The translations under genes were made by a program, and so were the position numbers. A stretch of 24,849 nt of DNA. Origin: a virus. Shown here in pieces: positions 225-20,973 of the stretch (within the stretch, counting starts at the first letter, position 1; each line of letters opens with the position of its first letter). The notes below the pieces were generated by a model, which ran no database searches, was not told the DNA's origin, and worked only from the letters and a program-made list of their open reading frames with translations. The DNA lies in IMG/VR virus record IMGVR_UViG_3300035698_012504, positions 250,694 to 275,542 of that record. One strand, 5' to 3'.

Positions 225-1298
225 TTATACTATTAAGAAATCGACTACCTTTTCTTTAGTTTCCTCGTTAGATAACATTCCTTCAAATACTTGTCTACAT
301 ATATCGGCATCAAATGCGGCATCATGTAAATTTTCTTGATTGAATTTAACATTATAATAATGAGCTGCCTCTAATAAGGTTGGTTTTTTATATTTAAAAT
401 TAGGGTGGAATTTATTAAGTGGTAATCTCATAACACTTGTATTGGTTCCACATGTACAAAATGAATATGTCCAATGCATCTTAGAGAACCTTCTATCAAA
501 CGTAGAGTTATGTGCTACAAAATGTTTTATACCTTTGCAATATTTTTCTATAGATGTTAAATCATTTCTATAAAATTCGGGATATGTTGCATCTCCTCTA
601 AATTCTGTAATGGTTTTATGAGTTAATCCATTTACAGCTACTGCTCTTGGATCATAACATCCTGACTCAGAATAGTAATATCTAATGTATGGTTCTACGT
701 CATCACAATCAACTACTTCCATCTTATCAAGATCTACAATTGCTCGTATAGCGCAGACAGATAATACATGATCTTTCTTCTCACTCACTCCTGTGGTCTC
801 GAAGTCTATAAATATAAGTGGAATAGATCCCCACGTCTTTATTTTATTAGCTTCTTCTTTAGCATAAGTATCACAGAGTTCGTTATACTTATTTCCTTTA
901 TGAGCCTCAACGTATTCTGCTAATACATTAAATTTCTTGAGGATCTCATTTATTTCTTTCCATAGATTTACATGAGCAATTTCTAATTTTTTACTATTCA
1001 TCCAACCATTACATGACCACTTCTGCAACCAACTATTTATAGAATTACAAACATATTTTGAGTCACTAAAAATCTTTACATTTGTTCCAGGTTCAAAGTT
1101 ATTATTAATATGTACTAATGAACTATAAGCAGCCATTACTTCCATTGCGCTATTTGTAGTATTCTCTTTATTACCTTTTAGTACTTCTAATTCTTTTCCA
1201 TCTTCTAAAACAACTGCTGCCCATCCTCCAGGAAATGTTCCTTTCTGATTATTACCTAAACATGAACCGTCAGTATATACAACTATCTCCTTACTCAT
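225..1298 (-). CDS. Fusion protein: N-terminal RNase HI domain plus C-terminal DnaQ/RNase-T-like DEDDh 3'-5' exonuclease
   Basis: The N-terminus matches RNase HI closely. '[23 protein letters not shown]' aligns with E. coli RnhA '[20 protein letters not shown]'. '[11 protein letters not shown]', '[18 protein letters not shown]' and '[18 protein letters not shown]' align with 'TTNNRMELMAA', 'STDSQYV..GITQWIHNW' and 'GHAGHPENERCDELARAA'. The C-terminus carries the exonuclease motifs: Exo I 'FIDFETTG', Exo II 'FVAHNSTFD' and Exo III '[14 protein letters not shown]' with the DEDDh histidine. Its stop overlaps the next gene by 8 nt. Confidence 0.85.
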   Translation of the reverse strand: [357 protein letters not shown]

Positions 1299-1779
1299 TG
1301 GAGCCCTTTCTAATCTTCGTAATTATCTCAGTAGTAGATATTCCTTCTACTCCAGAAAATAATAATATCTTACCACCATAATTTTCAACAATTTTTCTCT
1401 CTGTTTGAACTACTGTATCAATAGTATAATCGCCACCCTTCACATAATAATTTGGTTTCAATCCTCTTAGAACTTCGTCGAAATCTTTACCGTCCCAAAG
1501 AAGAATATAATCTACAAATTCTAATGATGAAAGAACTAGTGCTCTATCTTCCTGGTTCATTATCGGTCTACCAGGACCTTTATTTTTTACAACAGATTCA
1601 TCAGTATTGAGGCCGACTATAAGTACATCACCAGCGTTGGCTGCTCTCCTAAGGTACTTAATATGACCCGCATGCATTATATCAAAACATCCATTTGTCC
1701 AGACAGTAGTTAAATTTTTACATTTACATTCTTGAGAAATTATTTTCAAAGCATCAAATGATAAAGTCTTCAGTCTCAT
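1291..1779 (-). CDS. Cytidylyl/adenylyltransferase of the HIGH-motif family (RfaE domain II / HldE C-terminal type sugar-phosphate nucleotidyltransferase)
   Basis: The sequence 'TNGCFDIMHAGHIKYL' is the (T/H)xGH nucleotidyltransferase signature. It matches the GCFD(L/I)LHxGH motif of heptose-1-phosphate adenylyltransferase and glycerol-3-P cytidylyltransferase. The size (162 aa) fits this class, and the gene is translationally coupled to the one downstream. Confidence 0.7.
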   Translation of the reverse strand: MRLKTLSFDALKIISQECKCKNLTTVWTNGCFDIMHAGHIKYLRRAANAGDVLIVGLNTDESVVKNKGPGRPIMNQEDRALVLSSLEFVDYILLWDGKDFDEVLRGLKPNYYVKGGDYTIDTVVQTERKIVENYGGKILLFSGVEGISTTEIITKIRKGSNE

Positions 1780-4565: not shown

Positions 4566-5867
4566 CTAAACCTGGTAAACCCATTCATCATCTTCGAAAA
4601 TATTTTTTGTATCTATTATAATATCTGAGTATTCTTTTATAATACTATAATCCACATTATCATGATCAACTGCAATTATTACAGCATCAGATCGTTTACA
4701 TATTGTCTTGAGATCTTCTGATTCAAAACTATAATGTTTATCTACATAAGGATCATGATAAGTAATGTTAGCCCTTCTGAAAAGCAACTGTTCCAATATA
4801 GCAGTGCCGGTAGAGTTTCTAACGTCTCCCACATTCTTTTTGTAAGCCAATCCAATAATAGCAATGTTAGCTCCTTTCACAGGTTTGTCCGCAGAATCTA
4901 AAATCCATTTAATCTTGTCTATTAAAATATCTAATGATTTTTTATTGACGCCTGTACATGCGTCTATGATGGGGGTATCGACCCCATGTTTATTCGATTC
5001 ATATTTAAAATAATATGGATCTACTCCTATACATTCTCCGCCTATAGATGCAGTTGGATAGAATGGAGAAAATCCAAATGGTTTTGTACTTGCCAATTCT
5101 ATCACTTCTTTTAAACTAATTTCCATTTGATCGCAGAATTGTTTGACTTCATTCATAAAAGATATGTTTACAAATCTATACATATTTTCTAATAGCTTTG
5201 TTAGTTCTGCTACATGAGTTCCTGAAGCTTCTACTACTTCATCTACAATATTTAAATATAGTGCTTTTGCAATAGCAGTCGAAACTGGATCAACTCCCCC
5301 AACAATCTTTGGAGTATTTTCTAAAGTATATAATTTATTTCCTGGGTCTACTCGTTCAGGACTAAATGCAACATATCCTTCGAATCCTCTAGATCTTGTT
5401 GGGTTTAACTTGTCATCTTTAAAACGCCAGAAGTTTTTGTTTGTAAACCCAGGATACACTGTACTTTCTAATACAATTAAAAAATCAGACTTCCCATAAC
5501 TTACAATGTTATTATGAATAGTGTCAATCAATATTTCTAAGTTCTTTACTTCTGGTTTATTATTAATGGTTGGGGTTGGAACACATATGATTATACAATC
5601 ACAATCTACTAAGATTTTTTTCGGAGGCTTTTCCCAACATGTAAATAATTCCACACCGTGATTTAAAATATCTAGTTCTTCATCACTTATATAACTTATA
5701 TCACACTTACCCGATTTAAGTTTTTTAATCTTTCTTTCATCTACATCAAATCCCCTGACTCTGAATCCTGCCTTTGCGAATTTAAGGGCCAACGGCAAAC
5801 CTACGTAGCCAAGTCCAATTATACCAATTTTAGCTTTCTTGGTTTCTATTTTTTCTAATAATTCCAT
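4566..5867 (-). CDS. Nucleotide-sugar dehydrogenase (UDP-glucose/GDP-mannose dehydrogenase family, WbpA/WecC-like UDP-N-acetyl-hexosamine dehydrogenase)
   Basis: It has an N-terminal Rossmann motif 'KIGIIGLGYVGLPLA'. The catalytic-cysteine motif 'IGGECIGVDPYYF' matches the 'GGHCIPVDPYY' of the WbpA/WecC branch. The C-terminal domain contains 'IIGLAYKKNVGDVRNS'. The protein is 433 aa. Confidence 0.85.
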   Translation of the reverse strand: MELLEKIETKKAKIGIIGLGYVGLPLALKFAKAGFRVRGFDVDERKIKKLKSGKCDISYISDEELDILNHGVELFTCWEKPPKKILVDCDCIIICVPTPTINNKPEVKNLEILIDTIHNNIVSYGKSDFLIVLESTVYPGFTNKNFWRFKDDKLNPTRSRGFEGYVAFSPERVDPGNKLYTLENTPKIVGGVDPVSTAIAKALYLNIVDEVVEASGTHVAELTKLLENMYRFVNISFMNEVKQFCDQMEISLKEVIELASTKPFGFSPFYPTASIGGECIGVDPYYFKYESNKHGVDTPIIDACTGVNKKSLDILIDKIKWILDSADKPVKGANIAIIGLAYKKNVGDVRNSTGTAILEQLLFRRANITYHDPYVDKHYSFESEDLKTICKRSDAVIIAVDHDNVDYSIIKEYSDIIIDTKNIFEDDEWVYQV

Positions 5868-6243: not shown

Positions 6244-7710
6244 TTATGCACCAGTATCGGAATCTGTAATGGTTAGTGCAGCCAATCCTTCAGGTCTTAT
6301 TACCTTAACCGCATAACGACTTAGGATTGTAAGTGATGGATTGTTACCAAGAGGATAAGGAATTAAGAGTGCTGGTACGTAAGGGGCATACACGCAAACC
6401 GCTTTCATCATTTCTGGGCTTCTGTGTTTCATAATTACTGTACCCTGAGGAACAATACTAGAAACAAGAATCTTCCATTTACCTGAAGATACTGTAGCTG
6501 AACGGTATCCGACATCTCCACCGGCAACACTATCGCCAACATATTCGAAGCCGTTAAGGGATTCAAATACTGCTGCATCAAGTGGGTTACATGCTAATGT
6601 ATTAGCAGGACCGATAAGAGAGGTGTTATACACCTGTGCGGAAAGCTTATTCAGTGTTGGAATAATATTTTCATACCATGCCTTACGACCCCATGTGAAT
6701 CCAGTTGGAGGATTCAGATCAAATGAGTCAGTATGGCTAGATGGGTTGTTGGAACTATTAGCAGTAATAAGCGTACTAATTAGTTGGTTATCAATGTCAA
6801 GAGCAATCTGCTCACCTATGATATTTACAAGCTCACTTTGAAGCTTAATATCATAAAGAGCCTGAATGTCTTGTTCCATATTCACTGTCCATTCTGCAGA
6901 GATTCGTCTGTCTACGACTTTGAATCTTATCTTTTCAACGTCGAACTTGACAGTCGGGTTAATTGTGTTTTCTTCTAGAGACGCATATCCCTGGAAGCCT
7001 ATTTCAGCTACTTCGCCTGTCGCTGAACTCCAGGTCAGTAGACCGTTTAAGTAATCAACATGACCACTTACGGTATCTGGACCTGCATTTGTGGTAACGT
7101 CAAAAGAGAAATTACCGTCGACATCGGCTTGCCAATCAACGGCAACGTATCCACCAGTTTGATCATAAATACCGGTGATTTTGAAATCTTTTTCAAGGTG
7201 TGAGTCAGTGCTATCCAGTGAGACCTCAGCTAGCACATCGTGATTTTGACCCTCAGTTGCTGTAGCAGCTACGCTGATACCAATAGAAGGACCACGAGAG
7301 ATATCTGTGGAGGTTGAAGGGAATGCATGATCATAGCCACTATCAACGTGACGTTTGAATGAAGGTCTTATAAATCCTTTGATTACATCGGGCTTATCAA
7401 TAGGCATTACATTAACTAATTCTTTCGCGACTAGTTTCGGATAGAATACGCGAAGTATAGGTAGTGTCATTGTCTCATATGGATTCAGTTGGAACATGCT
7501 GTTTTCCATCAGGTTTAGACGAGTATTCTCGGCTAATTGACTGAAGTCATCAGCTTGGTCCGTAGGTAGACCTTCGGCTAGGTTCTTTGCATAGTACTTA
7601 AAGCTCTCTGGGCTTGCAAGCATCTGACGGAAACCTTGAGGCGAACGTACGTCTAGACCAGTGTTGCGTTTTGTAGCATTATATGTTTCTTGTAGTAAAT
7701 GTTGCATCAT
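6244..7710 (-). CDS. Major capsid protein, T4 gp23-like
   Basis: 'VCVYAPYVPAL' matches T4 gp23 'GIYYAPYVALT'. 'AEWTVNMEQDIQALYDIKLQSELVNIIGEQIALDIDNQLI' matches gp23 'AAYSIELAQDLRAVHGMDADAELSGILATEIMLEINREVV'. The C-terminal 'VKVIRPEG' matches 'RRVYVKGI'. The protein is 488 aa. Confidence 0.8.
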   Translation of the reverse strand: MMQHLLQETYNATKRNTGLDVRSPQGFRQMLASPESFKYYAKNLAEGLPTDQADDFSQLAENTRLNLMENSMFQLNPYETMTLPILRVFYPKLVAKELVNVMPIDKPDVIKGFIRPSFKRHVDSGYDHAFPSTSTDISRGPSIGISVAATATEGQNHDVLAEVSLDSTDSHLEKDFKITGIYDQTGGYVAVDWQADVDGNFSFDVTTNAGPDTVSGHVDYLNGLLTWSSATGEVAEIGFQGYASLEENTINPTVKFDVEKIRFKVVDRRISAEWTVNMEQDIQALYDIKLQSELVNIIGEQIALDIDNQLISTLITANSSNNPSSHTDSFDLNPPTGFTWGRKAWYENIIPTLNKLSAQVYNTSLIGPANTLACNPLDAAVFESLNGFEYVGDSVAGGDVGYRSATVSSGKWKILVSSIVPQGTVIMKHRSPEMMKAVCVYAPYVPALLIPYPLGNNPSLTILSRYAVKVIRPEGLAALTITDSDTGA

Positions 7711-8466: not shown

Positions 8467-9885
8467 CTATGAGATACTAGGAGTATATGCTAATCTAAAT
8501 CCTGTTAAAGACCCGATTGAGGCGTCTGTTCTAACCAAACGTAAATTAAAGAACCCAGTCTCATTTCTAGGTATCTTCCAATATCCTCCTCTTGTAGGCC
8601 TGATCGACCCTCTATAAACACTAGTATGGCCATAACTATGTCCATTTAAATCTCTACACCAAGAAGGATCAATTAAAGCTTGTTGTAATAAATATTTATC
8701 TGATTGTGGGACATTACTATCATCATCATATGCTGCCGTAGTTGGCATATCTGTCCATTCACATCGTTTACTACCATTTATAGTATATAAATTTGAAGAA
8801 ACATCTAATTGTGGAGTATATGCTCCGCCTTTATTATATGCCGCAGAAGATATTATGTCTGTTCCAGCAGCGGCAGAAATAGTAGATGTTTTATTATATC
8901 TTGGTATAAATAATTGCCCATTATTAACAGCAAACCCGTTAATCCATTCTTCTTTATTTCCAATTGCATCTGCTATACCTGTAACTTCTCCATTATGTGT
9001 CCAACTTAATGGGCCACTACCAGTGTAGGTTGTACCATCTCCAGATTCTGTTCCAGGTACTAATCCATCAACTCTTACTCCTGACTGATAATTATAATTT
9101 GGACTTATATTATCACCGGCGAAATTTGGATCATATCTTCCATACCATGTATTTCCACCTGGATTATGTCCAGAAGCTAGACCATCAAATACCATAGCTG
9201 ACCATTCCCAATTCGTCATCATATGCCATCCAACTCCTTTATTAGAAGCTGCCGCAGCGGAATCTAAATAAGAAATTCCTGAAGTAGGATTGAATCCAGG
9301 CATAGAGAAATAAGAATTTCCTTCTGATGCAGATATAAACTGACCTATAAATATTTCATCATGGTAATCAAAAGTACCATCTGATGCTTTATATTTAAAT
9401 GCAGGGTGATAACCACTACCACAATAATTAGTAGACTTAATTAAATATTCCTGATTGGGATAAGAGGTAAATGTTCCCTCGTCTATCCCTTGTATTGCTA
9501 AATCTATCAGGTATACATAATCATCAGTTACTGAATCTACCTGATACCTATTCGGAGTTGGCATCACAGAGTAAAGAGTATTTGTAGCACCTACTGATGG
9601 TTCGGGAGGAACATAATGAACATAATCTCCCTCCTCTATTGGACGAATACCATCTGATTTAATTCTATTATCTATTTGGAAATTAATTATTCCTAATGGA
9701 TGTATTTCATCGGCATAATAATCAAGGATAGGTATTTTGTTAAAATTTTTATCCTCTACTTCAAATCTATTCAATATATACATATATGACGGCACACCAT
9801 TGGTGTCATATAAAACTGTTATCTTACCACCAGTCAATGATTCGACTGAAGATCTTAATCCATCTTTTACAAAAATATTAGGCAT
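8467..9885 (-). CDS. Paralogue A of a duplicated structural or carbohydrate-binding protein carrying FGE/SUMF1-like (C-type-lectin-fold) signature motifs
   Basis: It shares many blocks with ORF 9916..11415: 'TVLYD..G.PS.MY', 'GYHPAFKYK' with 'GIHPAFICG', 'EIFIGQF' with 'EIFVGQF', 'GWHMMTNWEWSAMVF' with 'GWHAMNLWEWSAIAF', and 'YTGSGPLSWTHNGEVTGIADAIGNKEEWINGF' with 'YTGSGPKSFRHNNDFTGISDIVSPNGEFIGGIF'. The 'T.NWEWSA' and 'GNKEEW' blocks resemble the FGE motifs 'PTEAEWEYAA' and 'GNVWEW'. Confidence 0.55.
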   Translation of the reverse strand: MPNIFVKDGLRSSVESLTGGKITVLYDTNGVPSYMYILNRFEVEDKNFNKIPILDYYADEIHPLGIINFQIDNRIKSDGIRPIEEGDYVHYVPPEPSVGATNTLYSVMPTPNRYQVDSVTDDYVYLIDLAIQGIDEGTFTSYPNQEYLIKSTNYCGSGYHPAFKYKASDGTFDYHDEIFIGQFISASEGNSYFSMPGFNPTSGISYLDSAAAASNKGVGWHMMTNWEWSAMVFDGLASGHNPGGNTWYGRYDPNFAGDNISPNYNYQSGVRVDGLVPGTESGDGTTYTGSGPLSWTHNGEVTGIADAIGNKEEWINGFAVNNGQLFIPRYNKTSTISAAAGTDIISSAAYNKGGAYTPQLDVSSNLYTINGSKRCEWTDMPTTAAYDDDSNVPQSDKYLLQQALIDPSWCRDLNGHSYGHTSVYRGSIRPTRGGYWKIPRNETGFFNLRLVRTDASIGSLTGFRLAYTPSIS

Positions 9886-9915: not shown

Positions 9916-11415
9916 TTACGGTATAAATGCAACTCGTGGTGCTTCCAAATTGTCATATTTTCTTACATTAAATCCAAAAGGCCCACCAACATTATCCGCA
10001 GTTCCAGAACCGGTAGATGAATCTCCTACACCTCTTTGCATGAAGTAAAAGGTTGAATCGCCTGCTGCTGTAGCTAGTTCGTCGGATGGGAATCCGCCAG
10101 TAATAACTGCTTCTTTTGCTGTTTGATTTGCAGTCGATACAGCTCTCCATATACCTCCACTAGCCATTAAGGAAAGTCTCATAAGTCTAACTAAATCATC
10201 ATAATTAGAATCTGCTAATGATTCTGCATGAAAATCAAGCGTTGAACTAGGAGGATATTGGTTCCATGAACTTGAATGAGCCAATCCACTATAGTCGGAT
10301 GCCAACCCATCAGATGTTCCTATTATATCACAGATCCCACCAGCAGATGGTTCTTTAAATGATAACCATCCATTTCCACCACCACCAACCCCATCCTGAG
10401 TCCACTCTAATGTATTGGCTGCACTAGTAATTCCATATTTTCTTTCGGCTTCAAAACTATTAAAAGAATTAAATCGAATCTGTCCAGAGTGAATAAAAAT
10501 CCCACCTATAAACTCTCCGTTTGGAGACACGATATCAGAGATTCCGGTAAAATCATTATTATGACGGAAACTTTTTGGACCAGATCCTGTATAGTAATCA
10601 TTTGATGTAAGATTATATGCTGGGGTTACAGTCTCATATGGGTAACTCGCATTTGGACTTCTAACCGATCTATCTATACCCAAATATCTATTATCTCCAT
10701 AATCATATGAAGATGATGTACCTATACCTCTAACAGTTGTTTCATTTGATAAAATTTGAAAAGCAATTGCTGACCATTCCCACAGATTCATAGCATGCCA
10801 ACCAGGACCTTTTACAATCATTGACTGTCTTATATAATCATAATCATATCCAACTTGATCCTGTACAAGTGTACGTGGAAGAGAATGAAAAGTATTATTG
10901 ATTATAGACGATCTAAACTGTCCTACAAATATTTCTGATTTATATCCAGGGCTATATGTCTCGTGGGGACCACATATAAATGCTGGATGGATTCCATGAC
11001 CCATTAATCCCTGTATCCACATTCCAGTCTCATTTATATCACCCCATGCGATTGCTGCTACTGGATTTGTCTGAATTCTAAATGTATTAACATCTGGTAC
11101 AGAACTAACTACAACATCTTGACCATGCCAATCTGATGATGGTCTTTCCCCGACTATTGTTATTACATCGCCAGCGGTTAATCCATGAGCAGTATATACT
11201 ATTTCTCTAGTATTAACATCAGGACTACCACTAGCGGTGACACTTGTAAATGGTATATACATCGCAGTAGGATCGACTGATATAATATCAAATCTAGGGA
11301 TTACATACATTTGAGAAGGTATTCCTGCTGCATCATATAAAACTGTATTTTGTCCACCACTAGCACCTTCTACTGCTAATCTATATGGATCTTTAATTAA
11401 AATATTAAAGCTCAT
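9916..11415 (-). CDS. Paralogue B of the same family as 8467..9885
   Basis: See paralogue A. This copy is 499 aa and has a Gly-rich insert ('VGGGGNGW'). It overlaps the upstream gene by 11 nt. Confidence 0.55.
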   Translation of the reverse strand: MSFNILIKDPYRLAVEGASGGQNTVLYDAAGIPSQMYVIPRFDIISVDPTAMYIPFTSVTASGSPDVNTREIVYTAHGLTAGDVITIVGERPSSDWHGQDVVVSSVPDVNTFRIQTNPVAAIAWGDINETGMWIQGLMGHGIHPAFICGPHETYSPGYKSEIFVGQFRSSIINNTFHSLPRTLVQDQVGYDYDYIRQSMIVKGPGWHAMNLWEWSAIAFQILSNETTVRGIGTSSSYDYGDNRYLGIDRSVRSPNASYPYETVTPAYNLTSNDYYTGSGPKSFRHNNDFTGISDIVSPNGEFIGGIFIHSGQIRFNSFNSFEAERKYGITSAANTLEWTQDGVGGGGNGWLSFKEPSAGGICDIIGTSDGLASDYSGLAHSSSWNQYPPSSTLDFHAESLADSNYDDLVRLMRLSLMASGGIWRAVSTANQTAKEAVITGGFPSDELATAAGDSTFYFMQRGVGDSSTGSGTADNVGGPFGFNVRKYDNLEAPRVAFIP

Positions 11416-15002: not shown

Positions 15003-15893
15003 TTACATAACTCCTTCTAATTTTAAAGAATTAATATATTTTAAAAATTCTTCTTGCTTATATTTACCACTTTTTTTCTTATTATCCATCTCAGTTAAAA
15101 ATTGTAAATTACTTTCACCATTTATAATATCTAAATCATAAATGTTATTTTCAACAAATGCTTTTATTGGAAAAATATGATCAATATGAATTTTTAAATT
15201 ATTTATATTATATTTCTTTCTGAATTTTCTTTTATATGATGAACTTAAAGAATGAATTCTTTTAATCGACCTTATTTTACTTCTATCTGGATTCCAATTA
15301 GAACTGTTTTCTCCGGAAAGTTTATCTATTTTACAATAAATACATCGTTGGCCCCTTTTAAAATTACTAAAAGTAATTTTTGATGTATTTCCGCAATTGC
15401 ACTTATATTTTAAAGGAATTTCACATGTAATATATTTATCTAATAAAACACAATCTCTTTCTTTAAAATAACTATTCACCTCTTCTTGAGAGTATCTATG
15501 ACTATTCGCTCTTCGTTTTATTCCACATTTTTTACATCTACTTCCTTCCTTAAAACGACCAAGAACTGTACTAGAAATATTTCCACAAACACACCTATAC
15601 TTTACAGGACTATTATTATTCTTATATTTGTCCAGTAATTTACATCCTTCTTTTTTAAATATATATTCAACCTCTTTTTGAGAATGTTTCTTTTTACTAG
15701 ATCTTTTCTTTATTCCACAGCTCATACATCGCTTACCTTCTCTAAAATGATAAAGAGAAATCTTAGACTCATTCCCACAAATACATCTATACTTCATAGG
15801 AATATCACAATTATTATATTCTTCTGCTAAAAGTTCACAACCTTCCTTCTTAAATATTTCTCTAACTGTTTCTAACGTATATTTCCTATTCAT
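15003..15893 (-). CDS. Free-standing HNH endonuclease with three tandem zinc-ribbon repeats (homing-endonuclease-like)
   Basis: It contains three repeats of about 48 aa of the form 'F.KEGC.LL..Y.N...P.KY.C.CGN.S......F..G.RC..CG'. The C-terminal HNH core is 'KIHIDHIFPIKAF...NGESNLQFL'. An AGGAAAT ribosome-binding site is present. The gene is inserted between the prohead protease gene and the structural genes. Confidence 0.7.
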   Translation of the reverse strand: MNRKYTLETVREIFKKEGCELLAEEYNNCDIPMKYRCICGNESKISLYHFREGKRCMSCGIKKRSSKKKHSQKEVEYIFKKEGCKLLDKYKNNNSPVKYRCVCGNISSTVLGRFKEGSRCKKCGIKRRANSHRYSQEEVNSYFKERDCVLLDKYITCEIPLKYKCNCGNTSKITFSNFKRGQRCIYCKIDKLSGENSSNWNPDRSKIRSIKRIHSLSSSYKRKFRKKYNINNLKIHIDHIFPIKAFVENNIYDLDIINGESNLQFLTEMDNKKKSGKYKQEEFLKYINSLKLEGVM

Positions 15894-15943: not shown

Positions 15944-16639
15944 TTATAAACTATACTTATTTTTTAAATCTTTCATTCGTGTCTCTACTAGTTTATCATA
16001 CTGATTTGGAATCATGCACACGCCATTTTTAAGGCACACTAACCCACCCTTTTCGGAAACACATTCCATTAATCCAACAGATTCATGAATTGTTCTTGTA
16101 ACTGTTTCAGTTATTTTAATCATTCTAGCTGAGTCATGACTTGGATAACTTACGGAGTCCCAAGTTACTACATGTAAAGGATGTTGAACTTCATATACAA
16201 CATCACTACCTTCATTTATTTGTTTTACATCTCCCATTCCACGGAAACTAAATCCGACAGGAACGCCATCTTCGGCAAGATTTTTTAAGATGTAACCATT
16301 AGGAGTTCTTAATGTTTCTATAGTCGCCATTAATTTATTTGAACTCCAACCAGTCTCTAAGATTCTATGAGAACAGTCTTTATATAATACTGTTACTTGT
16401 CTAACTGGGTTCTGATCTATTGGGTGATCTAGCTCTCCAATAAAAGATCCTTCTTGTACTCTCTTCTTAATAGAGTTCAGACCTTCATCCAATAAAGCTC
16501 TACTATACTTTCTTTTATTTCTATTTATCTCATCACACGTTTGAAGGATGCACTCCATTCTAACTCTACCATTTTTATCGGTAGATTTTAGTTTGGTTGG
16601 GACAGATACTACGCTTGGTGATTCTGCGATTATAAACAT
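15944..16639 (-). CDS. Prohead core protease, T4 gp21-like (peptidase U9)
   Basis: 'EINRNKRKYSRALLDEG...GELDHP' matches T4 gp21 'VVNRNKRLYPKRILEKA...GELNHP'. 'GVPVGFSFRGMG' matches 'GWIPGVSSRGLG', the catalytic Ser region. 'VVTWDSVSYPSHDSA' matches 'VDAVWGPSAPDAWV'. The protein is 231 aa. Confidence 0.8.
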   Translation of the reverse strand: MFIIAESPSVVSVPTKLKSTDKNGRVRMECILQTCDEINRNKRKYSRALLDEGLNSIKKRVQEGSFIGELDHPIDQNPVRQVTVLYKDCSHRILETGWSSNKLMATIETLRTPNGYILKNLAEDGVPVGFSFRGMGDVKQINEGSDVVYEVQHPLHVVTWDSVSYPSHDSARMIKITETVTRTIHESVGLMECVSEKGGLVCLKNGVCMIPNQYDKLVETRMKDLKNKYSL

Positions 16640-16658: not shown

Positions 16659-16886
16659 TTATTTTCCAACGGGGGCACCATGAAATGGCAAGCCCTCGGG
16701 CTCTCTTCTTGCTTTTTTAACTACTGAGGTTGTTTGAGTTGGAGCCTTCTTCTTTTTCTTTAGTGCATTTTTTATTCTAGCTTTTATGGTAGCCGCTTTT
16801 GATGTAGGCGCACCATGCATACCCGCGCGAACATTAGTAACTGCCTTAGACGCTACTTTTGCTATAAAGCGTTCAGATACATACAT
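16659..16886 (-). CDS. Small, highly basic Lys/Ala-rich protein that resembles a T4 internal protein; paralogue 1
   Basis: A 75-aa protein whose N-terminus 'MYVSERFIAKV' is shared with the adjacent 82-aa paralogue. About 25% of residues are Lys or Arg. It sits between the portal and prohead protease genes, as the T4 prohead-core and internal-protein genes do. Confidence 0.5.
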   Translation of the reverse strand: MYVSERFIAKVASKAVTNVRAGMHGAPTSKAATIKARIKNALKKKKKAPTQTTSVVKKARREPEGLPFHGAPVGK

Positions 16887-16899
16887 ATTATTATACCTC

Positions 16900-17148
16900 T
16901 TATGCGGTCGCTGGGATCAGTTTATTTTTTATTTTTTTAACAACTTTTCCAGCAGCCTTCTTAGTGCCTCTCGCTACTCTTTGTCCTAGAGTAGTTGTGC
17001 CAGTCATTTTGGCGGCTTTTGCTCTTGCAGCTATCATCTTAGCGCTATTTGGGTTTTTTAATGACTTAGCAACTGTAGACGTATTTTTAGACCCGATCTT
17101 TGATGCCTTCTTTAAAAGGGTTCCTATAAATCTTTCTGATACATACAT
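16900..17148 (-). CDS. Small, highly basic Lys/Ala-rich protein that resembles a T4 internal protein; paralogue 2
   Basis: An 82-aa protein beginning 'MYVSERFIGTLLKK'. Its 5' coding DNA is conserved with paralogue 1: ATGTATGTATCAGAAAGATTTATAGG against ATGTATGTATCTGAACGCTTTATAGC. Confidence 0.5.
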   Translation of the reverse strand: MYVSERFIGTLLKKASKIGSKNTSTVAKSLKNPNSAKMIAARAKAAKMTGTTTLGQRVARGTKKAAGKVVKKIKNKLIPATA

Positions 17149-17682: not shown

Positions 17683-20600
17683 TTAAAATCCACCGCCACC
17701 ACCCATGCCACCAGGTGCTTCCTCGCCTTCATCTTTACCTTCAATCTTATCTTGAAGCTTCTGAGCTCTCTCAAATTTATCAATTTCTTCCCAAGGAAGG
17801 TTAAGATATTTCTTACATAACCATTCTTTATTAACTCCAAGTTCTTCTAATATTTGAACAATAGATTGTATTTGTTGAAAGTGCTCACCTTCCCGTTCTA
17901 TTTGAAGTAGCTTAGGAGGTGAAAATGTAACTAAAATTCCTACTGGTAATTTTTCATTTCTTATATATTTATATAATTTAGAGAACAAGCTCATTATATT
18001 TCGTGTAAGCATTTGTTGATACGCTACAATAGTTCTGGCAAATACATCATTTTCATGTGCAAGTGCAGCTTTATTACTATTATGAATAAATATACCAGCC
18101 GAAACTGCAAAGTTATGGTATGTCTCTACTCTGATATCACCACAATCGATTTTATATGATAATTTTTCAACTTTAACTACTTTATGGTTTAATATCAGTT
18201 CTTTTACTTCTCTCTTTCTAGTAAATATTTCACTTCTCTGTTGTGCTGTAGAAACTGCCCGATACTTATTTAAACAATTAGGATTATAACAAATAGTCTT
18301 ATATTGTTTTTCTTCCCAAGTGCCAAATCTTGAAGCCTCGGTGTAAACATAAAGATTTTCACATACTTCACAATATCTATATTCTATATTAGACCATAGA
18401 CGTCCTTTAAGTTTAGTCATTGATATGTTAGCTTTTCTAACCATCTTAGCACAATAATTATCATCGCAATTATACCATTTATATGGTTGCTCTTCTAATT
18501 GTTTCTTTAATTTTTTTGTTAACGTCTTAGTAAATTGCTTGCCACAATGAGAACATGACATAGTTATTTCTGGAAACTTTTTATCATAATCAATTTTACG
18601 AGAATCCCATGATAAACGACCTGTTTGTTGATGTCTTATTTTTCTACAAGCAGACGAACACGTCGTTTGAACTGTATCAGATCTATTAGTAAATGTTTTA
18701 CCACATATTTCACACGTTCTTTCCTCATATGAAGTACCAGGTACAGACAGTTCGAATAATTTTTTACGATTTTCTTGTAATTTTGTAAGTTCTTCTTTTG
18801 AAAATAACTTTGTACGGGCATGTAATGCAAGATGATCTCCAGCGGATAAACCCACTAAATTTTTAGTAGAATTGTTCAATGGATTCATATCTATATGATG
18901 ACAATGCTCATTACTAACAGCCATCTTTGTATAATGACTAAATGATCTATGCATCCAATCCCAAACATCTATTCCCGGATGATAAACATAATTATATTTA
19001 GTAGCTTTTTCTTTATTTCTACTTTTAATATAAGGTTTCATTTTCTTATAAAACGGCATTAAAGAATCACCTGGTTGTAAAGAACCAGCTTCAACATATT
19101 CACCACTTCTTTTCATCATTTTATGTTCAGGAGTAATTATTAAAAATTCACCATTATCTAATGTTATCTTAACAGCATCTACATCAAATTGAGTATATCC
19201 GGCCCATGTGACTTTATTCGGAAATACAACCCCCAAATCTTCATCATAAGAAATAACTTCAAATTCTTCACCTTTTTCAAATCTATCTATCATTTCTTTA
19301 AGGAGGATTTTCTTTCCATTAGTCAATTCGATGTAAGTCGTTGATACACAAGAAGATAGATTCTCCTCGAGGTTCATATATGCGGGAGGCACGTCTAAAC
19401 TAGACACTAACATATCCCTGAAAAACTTTAATTCATCTGTAACATCTCTGATGTTAGTTGGTGATTCTATTCTATCAAACTGAATTGCAGGTTCACCACC
19501 CCTTGGTCTTGGTATATAATATTCTTCATAAGATGTTATCATTGAAGGTATTGAAGAAATATTTCCCCAACTATCCACACTATGCTTTCTCTTCTTAGTC
19601 TTCTCTTGGAAGTCGGCAATAATATTTCTTACTTGTCTATCGGGAGAGGCATCAACGATAATCATCCTTTTATCACTAGAGTCAGATACTCTCTTAATAG
19701 TAACAGCTACTTCTAATGCTATCAATAACTTAGCCTGCCACATTGATTTGTAGAATATACTTTCTCCGTATGGGAAGAATCTCTTATTATAAATACAAAA
19801 ATGCTCCATCCGTTCAGGCGGAACATATCTTACTATTAACTTCTGATCATCTGTATTTTTTATCTCAGCCATTGCTCTGTTAATCAAAGTAACTAATTCT
19901 TTCTTATCTACTTTAGCATCCTTGGCAACATTTACACGACCTATATACTTAGAGACTGCTTTCATTATTTCTGCATATACTTTTTCTACTCCCGATAGAT
20001 TAGTATTTCTTGGATCATATCCAGTAATTTTCTTATTTAGATTCTGATTTGTTTTCATGGTCGCCCCAGACGAACTATTACTATTAATAGGAATAACTAA
20101 ATATCCTAAACACATTTTAAATCGTCTGGATTGTATCTTTATAACAGCTCTAGAATCGTGTACTATTAGTTTAATCTCTTCTAAAGCAGATTCTAGATTT
20201 GGTTTATCACTTGTAGGATTATCTTCATCTTTTTTCTTTTTTCTTACAGCTTCATCTATTACTACAACTGGCTCTATAGTTTTAGTATAGGCTTCACCAT
20301 TTTCATTAAGATATTCTATGTCTACTGATTCTAGAGTCATAACAGCATCTTCTGGCAATCCTTGCCTATCTGCTTCTGTAAGAATAACTTGAGTAACTGG
20401 TACCTCTTTAGATTTGTAACTAGCAAATTCTACGAACTGATCTCCGTACGATAAAGTATTACTTATTATATCATGTATCTCACCTTCTAAACCTAGATGG
20501 TCAGATATTGCTCTTATATCGCCTATTTTACTTTTATCTTTTTCTGATAGATCTTTTCCTCCAGTGATGTTGATGACCTCTTTCGAAACATCATCGGGGG

Positions 20601-20973
20601 ATAGGATACCATCTGTAATAACTTTTAATGCTCTAGAACAATAAGGTATATTGTCAACTATCTCATCTGCGTTATTATATCTCCAATATCTACCTTGTAG
20701 TTCTTCTGAATCTACTAGTTCTTGTGTTAAATCTCCAAGTGTCTTTTTGGCCCAGCTCTCATCTCCACCAACATCCATAGATTTAATAATAGAATTTTTA
20801 ATAACTTCGGCATATTTAAATGAATGTTTATCCACTATAGTATCTGATATTTTATCTAGTACATCATCGACATTATCTAGTTCCTTCTTGGTTGTTGTAC
20901 CAATTATCTTGGACACTATTTTGTCAAATGAGGACTGAATAGGATCAGATACTTTATTTTTCTTTTTTGCCAT
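17683..20973 (-). CDS. Portal protein, T4 gp20-like, interrupted in frame by a 424-aa intein
   Basis: The exteins match T4 gp20. 'AKLLIALEVAVTIKRVSDSSDKRMIIVDA' aligns with '[26 protein letters not shown]'. 'YEEYYIPRPRGGEPAIQFDRIESPTNIRDVTDELKFFRDML' aligns with '[43 protein letters not shown]'. Once the intein (residues 542-965) is removed, the mature portal would be about 672 aa. The C-terminus is 'GGMGGGGGF'. Confidence 0.8.
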   Translation of the reverse strand: MAKKKNKVSDPIQSSFDKIVSKIIGTTTKKELDNVDDVLDKISDTIVDKHSFKYAEVIKNSIIKSMDVGGDESWAKKTLGDLTQELVDSEELQGRYWRYNNADEIVDNIPYCSRALKVITDGILSPDDVSKEVINITGGKDLSEKDKSKIGDIRAISDHLGLEGEIHDIISNTLSYGDQFVEFASYKSKEVPVTQVILTEADRQGLPEDAVMTLESVDIEYLNENGEAYTKTIEPVVVIDEAVRKKKKDEDNPTSDKPNLESALEEIKLIVHDSRAVIKIQSRRFKMCLGYLVIPINSNSSSGATMKTNQNLNKKITGYDPRNTNLSGVEKVYAEIMKAVSKYIGRVNVAKDAKVDKKELVTLINRAMAEIKNTDDQKLIVRYVPPERMEHFCIYNKRFFPYGESIFYKSMWQAKLLIALEVAVTIKRVSDSSDKRMIIVDASPDRQVRNIIADFQEKTKKRKHSVDSWGNISSIPSMITSYEEYYIPRPRGGEPAIQFDRIESPTNIRDVTDELKFFRDMLVSSLDVPPAYMNLEENLSSCVSTTYIELTNGKKILLKEMIDRFEKGEEFEVISYDEDLGVVFPNKVTWAGYTQFDVDAVKITLDNGEFLIITPEHKMMKRSGEYVEAGSLQPGDSLMPFYKKMKPYIKSRNKEKATKYNYVYHPGIDVWDWMHRSFSHYTKMAVSNEHCHHIDMNPLNNSTKNLVGLSAGDHLALHARTKLFSKEELTKLQENRKKLFELSVPGTSYEERTCEICGKTFTNRSDTVQTTCSSACRKIRHQQTGRLSWDSRKIDYDKKFPEITMSCSHCGKQFTKTLTKKLKKQLEEQPYKWYNCDDNYCAKMVRKANISMTKLKGRLWSNIEYRYCEVCENLYVYTEASRFGTWEEKQYKTICYNPNCLNKYRAVSTAQQRSEIFTRKREVKELILNHKVVKVEKLSYKIDCGDIRVETYHNFAVSAGIFIHNSNKAALAHENDVFARTIVAYQQMLTRNIMSLFSKLYKYIRNEKLPVGILVTFSPPKLLQIEREGEHFQQIQSIVQILEELGVNKEWLCKKYLNLPWEEIDKFERAQKLQDKIEGKDEGEEAPGGMGGGGGF
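18079..19350 (-). mobile_element. Intein (Hint domain plus HNH homing-endonuclease domain plus Cys-rich zinc-ribbon motifs) inserted in the portal gene
   Basis: The intein begins with Cys ('NLSS|CVSTTYIELTNGKK', block A) and ends 'FAVSAGIFIHN|S', which is the block-G His-Asn followed by a +1 Ser on the C-extein. The internal HNH motif is 'EHCHHIDMNPLNNSTKNLVGL...DHLALH'. Several CxxC pairs are present ('CEICGKTF...CSSAC', 'CSHCGKQF', 'CEVCENLY...CYNPNC'). I verified the nucleotide boundaries by hand: TGT at 19350-19348 and AAT at 18081-18079. Confidence 0.7.

What the first reader, a model, noticed from the sequence alone, without database searches (positions are those of the whole stretch)
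18079..19350. HNH-type intein inside the portal (gp20-like) gene
The portal ORF is 1096 aa, whereas T4 gp20 is 524 aa. A 424-aa insert begins with Cys directly after '...NLSS' and ends with His-Asn followed by Ser, which are the canonical intein splice junctions. The insert contains an HNH endonuclease motif and several CxxC zinc-ribbon pairs, not a LAGLIDADG domain. The flanking exteins align with T4 gp20 on both sides. The insertion falls at a conserved portal position after 'DVPPAYMNLEENLSS', so it is probably a homing site.
Basis: partly seen in the sequence, partly recalled or inferred. Interest (0 to 1): 0.7.

Follow-up and report, generated by a model that had tools for sequence, protein, structure and literature searches.

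The report
HNH intein in phage portal gene
The portal gene of this uncultured phage is interrupted, in frame, by a self-splicing protein element (an intein) that carries its own HNH DNA-cutting enzyme. The element sits in the loop that lines the portal's DNA channel. This is a good new example of a known kind of selfish element, not a new kind.

Summary
ORF 17683-20973 (-) encodes a 1096-aa T4-gp20-like portal carrying a roughly 425-aa insert that about 100 homologous portals lack.

The insert is a class 1 intein:
- Pfam Intein_splicing scores 61 bits (cut-off 35.8).
- Block B TxxH, blocks F and G, the terminal His-Asn and a +1 Ser are all present.
- The AlphaFold model matches solved inteins at probability 1.0.

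Between its two splicing lobes lie an I-HmuI-type HNH_3 nuclease core and three zinc-ribbon-plus-helix modules. There is no LAGLIDADG domain.

Removing the insert in silico restores one continuous Portal_T4 match. [quoted passage not shown]

Same-site alleles range from full-length through nuclease-decayed to mini-inteins and empty sites. Intein and extein similarities are incongruent. Both patterns fit homing.

One correction is likely. All intein-free homologues read EENL|SNK and other same-site inteins start EENL|C. By homology the intein therefore probably starts two residues earlier, at Ser540 (window 18079-19356, 426 aa), not Cys542. I put Ser540 at about 0.65 against 0.25 for Cys542. 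Only protein chemistry can settle it.

Portal inteins and HNH inteins are both already described, so this is a new member of a known kind.

The parts
17683..20973 (-). Portal precursor CDS (1096 aa plus stop), a T4 gp20-like portal interrupted by an intein
   Evidence: ORF listing. Pfam Portal_T4 above cut-off. A profile of homologues hits T4 gp20 structures 6uzc, 3ja7 and 9lu6 at E about 1e-15.
19357..20973 (-). N-extein, aa 1-539, ending ...DVPPAYMNLEENL
   Evidence: Alignment with 111 homologues. EENL is conserved and is followed directly by SNK in all intein-free members.
18079..19356 (-). Intein as defined by homology: S540-N965, 426 aa.
   Evidence: The insert is absent from about 100 homologues. 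Pfam Intein_splicing scores 61-63 bits. MAFFT places S540 in the column of Cys1 of 17 related inteins. The AlphaFold model matches solved inteins.
19045..19356 (-). N-terminal splicing lobe (aa 540-643). Block A is SSCVSTTYIELTNG. Block B is TPEH (T614, H617). The family motif GDSLMPFY follows.
   Evidence: T75 and H78 (intein numbering) are invariant in 18 related inteins. pLDDT is 90-97.
18820..18909 (-). HNH (HNH_3 / I-HmuI-type) catalytic core, aa 689-718: EHCHHIDMNPLNNSTKNLVGLSAGDHLALH
   Evidence: Pfam HNH_3 scores only 13-16 bits here, below its cut-off of 24.8. The homologous segment of P0136 scores 28.3 bits and that of P0141 73.7 bits. A family profile aligns the motif to I-HmuI (1u3e) at E=0.024. 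H56/H57 are invariant, and D59, N64, N69, H78 and H82 (alignment numbering) are present in at least 90% of the sequences.
18274..18714 (-). Three zinc-ribbon-plus-helix modules: CxxC...Cx3-4C at aa 754-776, 807-841 and 868-900. Presumed DNA-recognition region of the endonuclease.
   Evidence: The Cys pairs are conserved in P0007, P0021, P0085, P0136 and L001. The model shows paired beta-hairpins each followed by a helix; pLDDT is 70-95 for the first two and about 50 or below for the third.
18079..18195 (-). C-terminal splicing lobe (aa 927-965). Block F is NHKVVKVEKLSYKIDCGDIRVETYHNF. Block G is SAGIFIHN, with H964 and N965.
   Evidence: N415, F416, G421 and N426 are invariant in 18 related inteins. 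pLDDT is 88-96.
17686..18078 (-). C-extein, aa 966-1096, starting S966-N-K-A-A-L. S966 is the +1 nucleophile.
   Evidence: SNK follows EENL directly in intein-free homologues, and every same-site intein ends HN|SNK.

Best explanation
The portal gene of this uncultured phage carries a full-length class 1 intein in frame. The gene lies in a head module with a prohead protease and a major head protein. The closest portals in the annotated phage collection belong to jumbo phages.

Shown here:
- The segment has the Hint fold and all splicing blocks.
- It is absent from about 100 homologous portals.
- It interrupts the portal exactly between ...EENL and SNK...
- Between its two splicing lobes it encodes an I-HmuI-type HNH_3 nuclease core followed by three zinc-ribbon-plus-helix modules.

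Inferred mechanism:
- After translation, residue 1 attacks the L539 carbonyl in an N-O (or N-S) acyl shift. Residue 1 is most likely Ser540, less likely Cys542.
- S966 takes over the N-extein by transesterification.
- N965 cyclises, aided by H964, and releases the intein.
- The result is a portal of about 76 kDa and 670 aa with an intact tunnel loop, plus a free endonuclease of about 50 kDa.
- The free protein, or the precursor, nicks or cuts intein-less portal alleles at the EENL/SNK-coding site during co-infection. Repair then copies the intein in (homing).

The insertion point corresponds to T4 gp20 F390/D391 in the tunnel loop, which lines the DNA channel. Twelve unspliced inserts of 50 kDa could not fit there, so splicing must precede or accompany dodecamer assembly. 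That last point is an inference.
For: Intein identity:
- Pfam Intein_splicing scores 61-63 bits against a cut-off of 35.8.
- TIGR01445 (23.7 bits, cut-off 24.5) and TIGR01443 (15.5 bits, cut-off 15.6) fall just below their cut-offs. NF052663, an intein-containing RtcB model, scores 86 bits over aa 541-971.
- Block B T/H and the terminal N are invariant across 18 related inteins.
- The AlphaFold model has pLDDT 90-97 over both splicing lobes.
- Foldseek probability is 1.0 to the Mtu RecA, Npu DnaE, Ssp DnaB, NrdJ-1 and PI-PfuI inteins.

Insertion, not a domain:
- Of 112 portal homologues, most are 632-763 aa with EENL directly followed by SNK and no indel.
- In-silico splicing turns two Portal_T4 stretches (47 bits) into one continuous stretch (62-63.5 bits).

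Site:
- A profile alignment to T4 gp20 puts the junction at F390/D391.
- The tunnel loop is residues 374-398 (PMC4493910).

Endonuclease:
- The conserved HH-D-N-NN-N-H-H motif aligns to I-HmuI.
- HNH_3 passes its cut-off in the homologous inteins of P0136 and P0141.

Mobility:
- Same-site alleles include full-length inteins of 427-578 aa with 3-7 zinc ribbons, an allele with the HNH core deleted (P0021), mini-inteins of 144-163 aa, and empty sites.
- The window and L001 inteins are 57% identical while their exteins are 39% identical. The window and P0007 exteins are 50% identical while their inteins are 42% identical.

Ser540 as residue 1:
- S540 occupies the Cys1 column.
- The relatives P0098 and P0137 (CLMISTTYI), P0113 (CLRISNTYI) and P0226 (CLNIKTTYI) have the same spacing with an unambiguous Cys1.
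- A Ser1 member with no nearby Cys exists in the same family: P0140...DRL|SVSLSTK.
Against: - No splicing or cleavage was observed; everything is computational.
- HNH_3 is below Pfam's cut-off in the window protein itself (13-16 bits against 24.8), and the I-HmuI match is marginal (E=0.024).
- The third zinc ribbon and the linkers are modelled at low confidence.
- The nuclease region modelled alone has no significant PDB fold match (best E=0.06).
- The N-terminal junction is ambiguous. All three members of this sub-lineage (window SSC, L001 SAC, P0136 SAC) conserve both S540 and C542.
- Position 3 is Cys only in the members that lack Cys1. This fits a displaced nucleophile as well as it fits shared ancestry.
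- Neither start gives the canonical 13-residue spacing to the block A Gly (14 for S540, 12 for C542).
- The wider T4-like family has 4 extra residues at exactly this point, so a 2-aa insertion might be tolerated.
- Portal_T4 scores 1.7 bits higher with SS retained.
Confidence: 0.9

Rival explanations
1. Same intein, but the reader's boundary is right. Cys542 is the N-terminal nucleophile, and the mature portal keeps a two-residue Ser-Ser insertion in its tunnel loop (EENLSS|SNK). This would mean the splice junction slid by two residues in this sub-lineage.
For: - Cys is conserved at this position in all three sub-lineage members, despite synonymous codon change (TGT versus TGC).
- Relatives with Cys1 have a variable residue (M/R/N/V) at position 3, so Cys3 occurs only where Cys1 is missing.
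- C-V fits the usual Cys-hydrophobic start.
- T4 gp20 has a 4-residue insertion at exactly this point of the loop.
- Portal_T4 scores 63.5 bits against 61.8 with SS kept.
Against: - None of about 100 intein-free homologues has any indel between EENL and SNK.
- About a dozen other same-site inteins begin directly after EENL.
- The spacing from C542 to the block A Gly would be 12. I saw that spacing in none of the roughly 380 related intein N-termini listed.
- A single C-to-S substitution (TGT to TCT) is more parsimonious than a junction shift.
- The three S-x-C inteins are each other's closest relatives, so the Cys3/Ser1 association counts as one evolutionary event.
Confidence: 0.25
2. The insert is a degenerate intein that no longer splices and is kept as a permanent domain of the portal. 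Alternatively, it only cleaves at one junction.
For: - Residue 1 is Ser where relatives have Cys. C1S changes are often deleterious in Cys-adapted inteins (my own knowledge, not tested here).
- No experimental data exist.
Against: - Block B T/H, block F Asp, the penultimate His, the terminal Asn and the +1 Ser are all intact and invariant in the family.
- The site is in the channel-lining tunnel loop, where 12 extra 50-kDa domains are sterically implausible for an essential portal.
- The same S-x-C form persists in three portals that are only 37-39% identical, which implies it works.
Confidence: 0.04
3. The insert is an artefact: an assembly chimera, or a free-standing endonuclease gene or intron misread as in frame.
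For: The window comes from a metagenome assembly. Another free-standing HNH gene lies nearby at 15003-15893.
Against: - There is one uninterrupted 1096-codon frame with Hint lobes flanking the nuclease.
- The identical protein is held in a public collection from several sources (JGI/IMG, Logan, ENA, MetaClust) on 2 contigs, the longest 152 kb.
- Independent contigs carry homologous inteins at the same codon.
- GC content of the insert is 0.305 against 0.334-0.338 for the exteins, only slightly lower.
Confidence: 0.01

Closest known systems
Same-site inteins in metagenomic gp20-like portals (P0007, P0021, P0047, P0049, P0064, P0098, P0136, L001)
   Same: - Same insertion codon (EENL|...HN|SNK) and the same Hint family with the GDSLMP(L/F)Y motif.
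- P0007, P0136 and L001 share the HNH plus zinc-ribbon architecture. Identity is 42-57% over the intein.
   Different: - Most start with Cys1. Only the window, L001 and P0136 start S-(S/A)-C.
- The window has three zinc ribbons where those have four.
- None of these proteins is described in the papers I found.
Actinobacteriophage / mycobacteriophage portal inteins (Kelley et al. 2016, PMC5050341; bioRxiv 10.1101/2025.01.02.630785)
   Same: Inteins interrupting phage portal proteins. They are thought to spread by homing among co-infecting phages.
   Different: - In those surveys most actinobacteriophage inteins carry LAGLIDADG endonucleases, and the portals are annotated under a different InterPro entry (IPR009279). 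I did not check the endonuclease type of their portal inteins specifically.
- The insertion sites are unrelated as far as I can tell.
- No HNH-plus-zinc-ribbon nuclease in a portal is reported there.
Inteins with in-frame HNH endonucleases (first noted by Dalgaard et al. 1997, as cited)
   Same: The nuclease between the splicing lobes is HNH rather than LAGLIDADG. The 2025 survey calls this architecture rare.
   Different: - Here the HNH is the HNH_3 / I-HmuI type and is followed by three zinc-ribbon-plus-helix modules.
- Relatives in GyrA, a caspase-like peptidase and a dCTP-deaminase-like protein have the same HNH but helical W-x-DPEYR-type repeats instead of zinc ribbons.
I-HmuI (PDB 1u3e), free-standing HNH homing endonuclease of Bacillus phage SPO1
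   Same: The HH-D-x-N-x-x-NN...NL core aligns. The window's H693 lines up with the His of I-HmuI's DH-KDGNKDNN motif.
   Different: - I-HmuI is a free-standing, intron-encoded nicking enzyme (my own knowledge, not tested here).
- The match is marginal (E=0.024).
- No zinc ribbons align.
NrdJ-1 intein (PDB 8ubs), the closest solved intein by sequence
   Same: Class 1 Hint fold. The N-lobe aligns over 113 residues at E=0.005, and Foldseek probability is 1.0.
   Different: It is a mini or split intein without a nuclease, and it has Cys1.

Membership tests
Class 1 intein | In-frame insertion in a conserved host protein that is absent from homologues | tested here: met
   About 100 homologous portals read EENL|SNK with no insert. 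Removing the insert restores one continuous Portal_T4 match.
Class 1 intein | Hint fold / Intein_splicing domain | tested here: met
   PF14890 scores 61-63 bits against a cut-off of 35.8. The model has pLDDT above 90 in both lobes, and Foldseek probability is 1.0 to many solved inteins.
Class 1 intein | Nucleophile (Cys/Ser/Thr) at residue 1, directly after the N-extein | tested here: met
   A nucleophile is present under either reading. S540 follows the conserved extein end directly, and C542 lies two residues later. Which one is used is unresolved.
Class 1 intein | Block B Thr-x-x-His | tested here: met
   T614-P-E-H617. Both T and H are invariant in 18 related inteins.
Class 1 intein | Block F Asp and block G ending His-Asn, followed by a +1 Cys/Ser/Thr | tested here: met
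   ...IDCGDIRVETYHNF...GIFIH964-N965|S966. The terminal Asn is invariant, and +1 is Ser or Cys in all relatives.
Class 1 intein | Demonstrated protein splicing | not testable with these tools
   This needs expression plus SDS-PAGE or mass spectrometry.
Class 3 intein (considered) | Trp-Cys-Thr motif (block B Trp, block F position-4 Cys, block G position-5 Thr) and no residue-1 nucleophile | tested here: not met
   Block F position 4 is Asp (CGD-I), block G position 5 is Ile, and a residue-1 nucleophile is present (sequence; alignment). The definition of the motif is from my own knowledge.
HNH_3 / I-HmuI-type HNH endonuclease | Pfam PF13392 at or above its gathering score | tested here: not met
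   The window protein scores 13.3-15.6 bits against a cut-off of 24.8. The homologous segment passes in P0136 (28.3 bits) and P0141 (73.7 bits), and P0085 carries a precomputed PF13392 hit. Membership therefore rests on homology, not on the window's own score.
HNH_3 / I-HmuI-type HNH endonuclease | Catalytic His (general base), conserved Asn, and a distal His/Asn metal ligand in a beta-beta-alpha-metal motif | tested here: met
   H692-H693...N700-N701...N705...H714...H718 are present, and the corresponding columns are conserved in 90% or more of the sequences aligned. The motif aligns to I-HmuI's DH-KDGNKDNN...NL. The model shows strand-strand-helix here at pLDDT 71-90.
HNH_3 / I-HmuI-type HNH endonuclease | Site-specific DNA cleavage or nicking of the intein-less allele | not testable with these tools
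   This needs purified protein and a target DNA.
T4 gp20-like portal (PF07230) | Pfam Portal_T4 above its gathering score, and homology to solved gp20 | tested here: met
   The score is 47 bits for the precursor and 62 bits when spliced, against a cut-off of 22.9. A profile of 40 homologues hits 6uzc, 3ja7 and 9lu6 at E of 3e-16 to 3e-15. Only the C-terminal 40% aligns; the N-terminal half is divergent.

The most novel reading that the evidence does not exclude
In this sub-lineage (window, L001, P0136) the N-terminal splice junction has slid by two residues. The ancestral Cys1 became Ser and a new Cys at former position 3 took over as nucleophile. Two former intein residues (Ser-Ser or Ser-Ala) would then be left in the mature portal's DNA-channel tunnel loop. 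That would be a natural case of an intein remodelling a functional loop of its host protein.
Probability: 0.25. Interest if true: 0.55.

Novelty: new member of a known kind. Interest (0 to 1): 0.38.

Why it matters
Practical consequences:
- Gene callers and annotators will report this portal as a 1096-aa protein of odd size, and size- or profile-based portal searches may miss it.
- The mature protein is about 670 aa.

Biological points:
- The intein sits in the tunnel loop, the part of the portal that touches DNA and closes the channel. This fits the rule that inteins lodge in the most constrained, nucleic-acid-contacting sites of essential proteins.
- It also means portal assembly in this phage depends on splicing.
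- The same few residues of the loop host inteins at five or more different registers in related portals. Some portals carry two to six inteins. This portal clade is therefore a rich natural set for studying homing-site choice and intein turnover.
- The S-x-C start offers a cheap experimental test of how flexible the N-terminal junction is.

None of this changes what inteins are understood to be.

Tried and rejected
- **tblastn of the precursor against 50,697 phage records.** It gave only distant portal hits at 23-30% identity, mostly from jumbo phages, plus inteins in other proteins. There was no close cultured relative.
- **Bacillus phage SP-15 hit.** It is a same-family HNH intein, but in a P-loop protein, not the portal.
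- **IMG/VR scan with the junction region.** Nothing was found.
- **Word-indexed searches.** The search with the window/P0136 junction profile returned only 6 distant hits and no new S-x-C alleles. The search with the intein alone did not even return the window's own protein, so that tool under-samples this family.
- **Metagenome scan.** It yielded one useful locus, L001. That locus conserves both S540 and C542 and therefore does not resolve the boundary.
- **phmmer of the spliced portal against PDB sequences.** It found nothing meaningful. A profile of 40 homologues was needed.
- **Modelling the nuclease region alone.** The HNH model was worse than in the full-length model (pLDDT 33-50). Foldseek then found no significant PDB match. 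Weak C2H2 and XPA-type zinc-finger hits look like CxxCGKxF pattern matches, not homology.
- **Neighbouring free-standing HNH gene (15003-15893).** It is unrelated to the intein's HNH.
- **The look-up of encoding contigs for the window protein.** It returned nothing, so the sample of origin is unknown.
- **Predicted models as a test of the boundary.** The tools give no coordinates, so I could not measure which of S540 or C542 sits next to the block B His.
- **Class 3 intein.** Considered and rejected (see the membership test).
Full report
**1. The observation**

ORF 17683..20973 on the minus strand encodes 1096 aa. It begins CVSTTY... after ...NLEENLSS and ends ...GIFIHN before SNKAAL. Pfam finds Intein_splicing (E=1.4e-16, 61.1 bits, cut-off 35.8) over aa 551-965. 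It also finds Portal_T4 (47.3 bits, cut-off 22.9) in two stretches on either side. No LAGLIDADG family appears even at E<=10. NCBIfam's intein N- and C-terminal models fall just below their cut-offs, and an intein-containing RtcB model matches aa 541-971 at 86 bits. The description is accurate and far beyond chance.

**2. It is an insertion, not a portal domain**

I searched 5.8 billion proteins with the in-silico spliced portal. The search returned 112 homologues, including the identical protein, which is held on contigs of up to 152 kb.

- Most homologues are 632-763 aa and carry no insert.
- In a MAFFT alignment of all of them, every intein-free member reads ...VPPxYxxxEENL followed directly by SNK(x)AL. 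Not one has an indel there.
- Removing the insert turns the two Portal_T4 stretches into one continuous match (aa 404-645 to model positions 175-430, 62 bits).

**3. Anatomy of the intein**

I aligned the window's intein with 17 related inteins.

- Block B T614/H617, the GDSLMP motif, block F (NHKV...D-x-x-V-E...HNF) and the terminal Asn are invariant or nearly so.
- The +1 residue is Ser or Cys throughout.
- Block F position 4 is Asp and block G position 5 is Ile, so this is class 1, not class 3.

An AlphaFold model built on that alignment has pLDDT 90-97 over both splicing lobes. Foldseek matches it at probability 1.0 to the Mtu RecA, Npu DnaE, Ssp DnaB, NrdJ-1, PI-PfuI and other solved inteins.

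Several elements lie between the lobes:
- an HNH core, EHCHHIDMNPLNNSTKNLVGLSAGDHLALH, aa 689-718;
- three CxxC...Cx3-4C modules at aa 754-776, 807-841 and 868-900. Each is modelled as two beta-hairpins followed by a helix.

The window's own HNH_3 score is below Pfam's cut-off (13-16 bits against 24.8). The homologous segment passes in P0136 (28.3 bits) and P0141 (73.7 bits). A family profile aligns the motif to the solved HNH homing endonuclease I-HmuI at E=0.024. I accept the HNH assignment on homology and motif conservation. It is not established by the window's own score.

The zinc-ribbon region has no significant solved-structure match. Its DNA-binding role is an inference from its position and from analogy with modular homing endonucleases.

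**4. Where it sits in the portal**

A profile of 40 intein-free homologues hits T4 gp20 structures (6uzc, 3ja7, 9lu6) at E about 1e-15. In that alignment EEN aligns to gp20 D383-Q385, and LSNK aligns to F390-G393. T4 has four extra residues (GGVM) between them. The junction L|S therefore corresponds to F390|D391.

Sun et al. 2015 (PMC4493910) define the tunnel loop as residues 374-398. The loop protrudes into the DNA channel and forms its narrowest part in emptied heads. Deleting it stops completion of packaging. The intein is thus in the channel-lining loop. I infer that splicing must occur before or during dodecamer assembly.

**5. Evidence for mobility**

At this same codon, related portals show the full range expected of a homing cycle:
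- full-length inteins of 427-578 aa with 3-7 zinc ribbons;
- an allele whose HNH core is deleted but whose zinc ribbons remain (P0021);
- mini-inteins of 144-163 aa;
- empty sites.

Intein and host similarities are also incongruent.

| Pair | Intein identity | Extein identity |
|---|---|---|
| Window vs L001 | 57% | 39% |
| Window vs P0136 | 47% | 39% |
| Window vs P0007 | 42% | 50% |

This pattern is what lateral transfer of the intein between diverged portals would give.

The same few residues are a hot spot. Inteins occur at EEN|S-SNR (P0116, P0246) and at EENL|SNK. They also occur at LS|SK, SNK|SAL (P0085, P0169, P0196, and the second intein of P0136) and SKATL(A)|C. The downstream side of the LS|SK and SKATL(A)|C registers is inferred from the N-terminal listing only and was not read.

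An HMMER scan of 1.84 billion representative proteins finds 3705 proteins with this intein type at E<=1e-3. Many carry several copies.

**6. The N-terminal boundary**

About a dozen other same-site inteins begin with Cys directly after EENL. The window instead reads EENL-S540-S541-C542.

For Ser540 as residue 1:
- MAFFT puts S540 in the Cys1 column.
- The relatives P0098 and P0137 (CLMISTTYI), P0113 (CLRISNTYI) and P0226 (CLNIKTTYI) align without gaps to SSCVSTTYI, with their Cys1 opposite S540.
- A single TGT-to-TCT change would give Ser1.
- A Ser1 member with no nearby Cys exists in the same family: P0140, DRL|SVSLSTK against DRL|CVDL in its homologues.
- With Ser540 as residue 1 the spliced loop is EENLSNK, colinear with every homologue.

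For Cys542 as residue 1:
- The two closest relatives, P0136 (EENL|SACVSRTYIEL) and L001 (EENL|SACVNTSYIEL), conserve both the Ser and the Cys. The codons differ synonymously (TCT/TCA and TGT/TGC).
- Cys at position 3 occurs only where Cys1 is absent.
- The wider T4 family tolerates extra residues at exactly this point.
- Portal_T4 scores 1.7 bits higher with SS kept.

Neither start gives the canonical spacing to the block A Gly.

My weighting is Ser540 about 0.65, Cys542 about 0.25, and the remainder for other or non-splicing outcomes. The tools return no model coordinates, so I could not test the geometry. A junction peptide by mass spectrometry would decide.

**7. Context**

The gene lies in a head module:
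- prohead protease, 15944-16639;
- major head protein, 6244-7710;
- a free-standing HNH gene, 15003-15893, unrelated to the intein's nuclease.

The nearest portals in the annotated phage collection are at 23-30% identity and mostly belong to jumbo phages such as PBS1/AR9, LPJP1 and Staphylococcus PB50. An unannotated 484-kb uncultured phage record, LR756508.1, has a 1386-aa portal ORF. Reading the sequence, I see three apparent inteins in it. One is an HNH intein in the equivalent loop, three residues downstream of the window's site.

**8. Comparison with what is known, and verdict**

Inteins in phage portal proteins are documented in actinobacteriophages (PMC5050341; bioRxiv 10.1101/2025.01.02.630785). 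In-frame HNH inteins are also documented, though the 2025 survey calls them rare. I found no paper describing an intein in the tunnel loop of a gp20-like portal, the HNH_3-plus-zinc-ribbon nuclease arrangement inside an intein, or the multi-intein portals. My literature search was limited to three full-text queries.

It is a new member of a known kind. Interest is moderate, at 0.38.

Noticed in passing
window 15003-15893 (-): A free-standing HNH endonuclease ORF of 296 aa (phrog_559, E=3.5e-24). It sits in the lowest-GC patch of the window (22-28%), just downstream of the prohead protease gene. It has three repeated 'KY(R/K)C.CGN' modules and is unrelated to the intein's HNH. It is probably a second, independent homing element.
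   Followed up: partly
window 16659-16886 and 16900-17148 (-): Two adjacent small lysine-rich ORFs (75 and 82 aa) both begin MYVSERFI. They lie between the portal/scaffold-like genes and the protease gene. This resembles T4 internal proteins that share an N-terminal capsid-targeting and cleavage peptide. That is an idea only; they have no database match.
   Followed up: no
window 8467-9885 and 9916-11415 (-): Tandem paralogous genes (472 and 499 aa) both match phrog_2889, a family of unknown function.
   Followed up: no
window 1291-1779 and 4566-5867 (-): Sugar-nucleotide metabolism genes lie beside the head genes: a heptose kinase/adenylyltransferase-like ORF (phrog_7878) and a UDP-glucose dehydrogenase-like ORF (phrog_9148).
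   Followed up: no
P0136 (1593 aa), P0140 (2818 aa), P0161 (2930 aa); outside the window: Metagenomic gp20-like portals carry several inteins. P0136 has two HNH/zinc-ribbon inteins separated by only three residues (HN|SNK|C). P0140 and P0161 each show six Intein_splicing stretches, and P0161 has both HNH and LAGLIDADG types.
   Followed up: partly
L013 896-5056 (LR756508.1, uncultured 484-kb phage): An unannotated 1386-aa portal ORF. Reading the sequence, I see three apparent inteins. The third is an HNH intein in the tunnel-loop region (...GYEKELEGK|C...KN|STLSQQ).
   Followed up: partly
L012 2288-3907 (Bacillus phage SP-15, SP15_022, annotated 'hypothetical protein'): A cultured jumbo phage gene carries a same-family HNH intein (CLSGDTEV...GDSLMPF...HHRDFNKRNNDP...FVHN|C). 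The intein is inserted just before a P-loop motif (GGIGLGKST) and is not annotated as an intein.
   Followed up: partly
one search list (e.g. P0198, P0204, P0161): Many related inteins begin with Pro-Val (e.g. RYNPL|PVHKDTPIPLLDG) where homologues at the same site have Cys-Leu. They may be class 3-type or otherwise non-canonical inteins.
   Followed up: no
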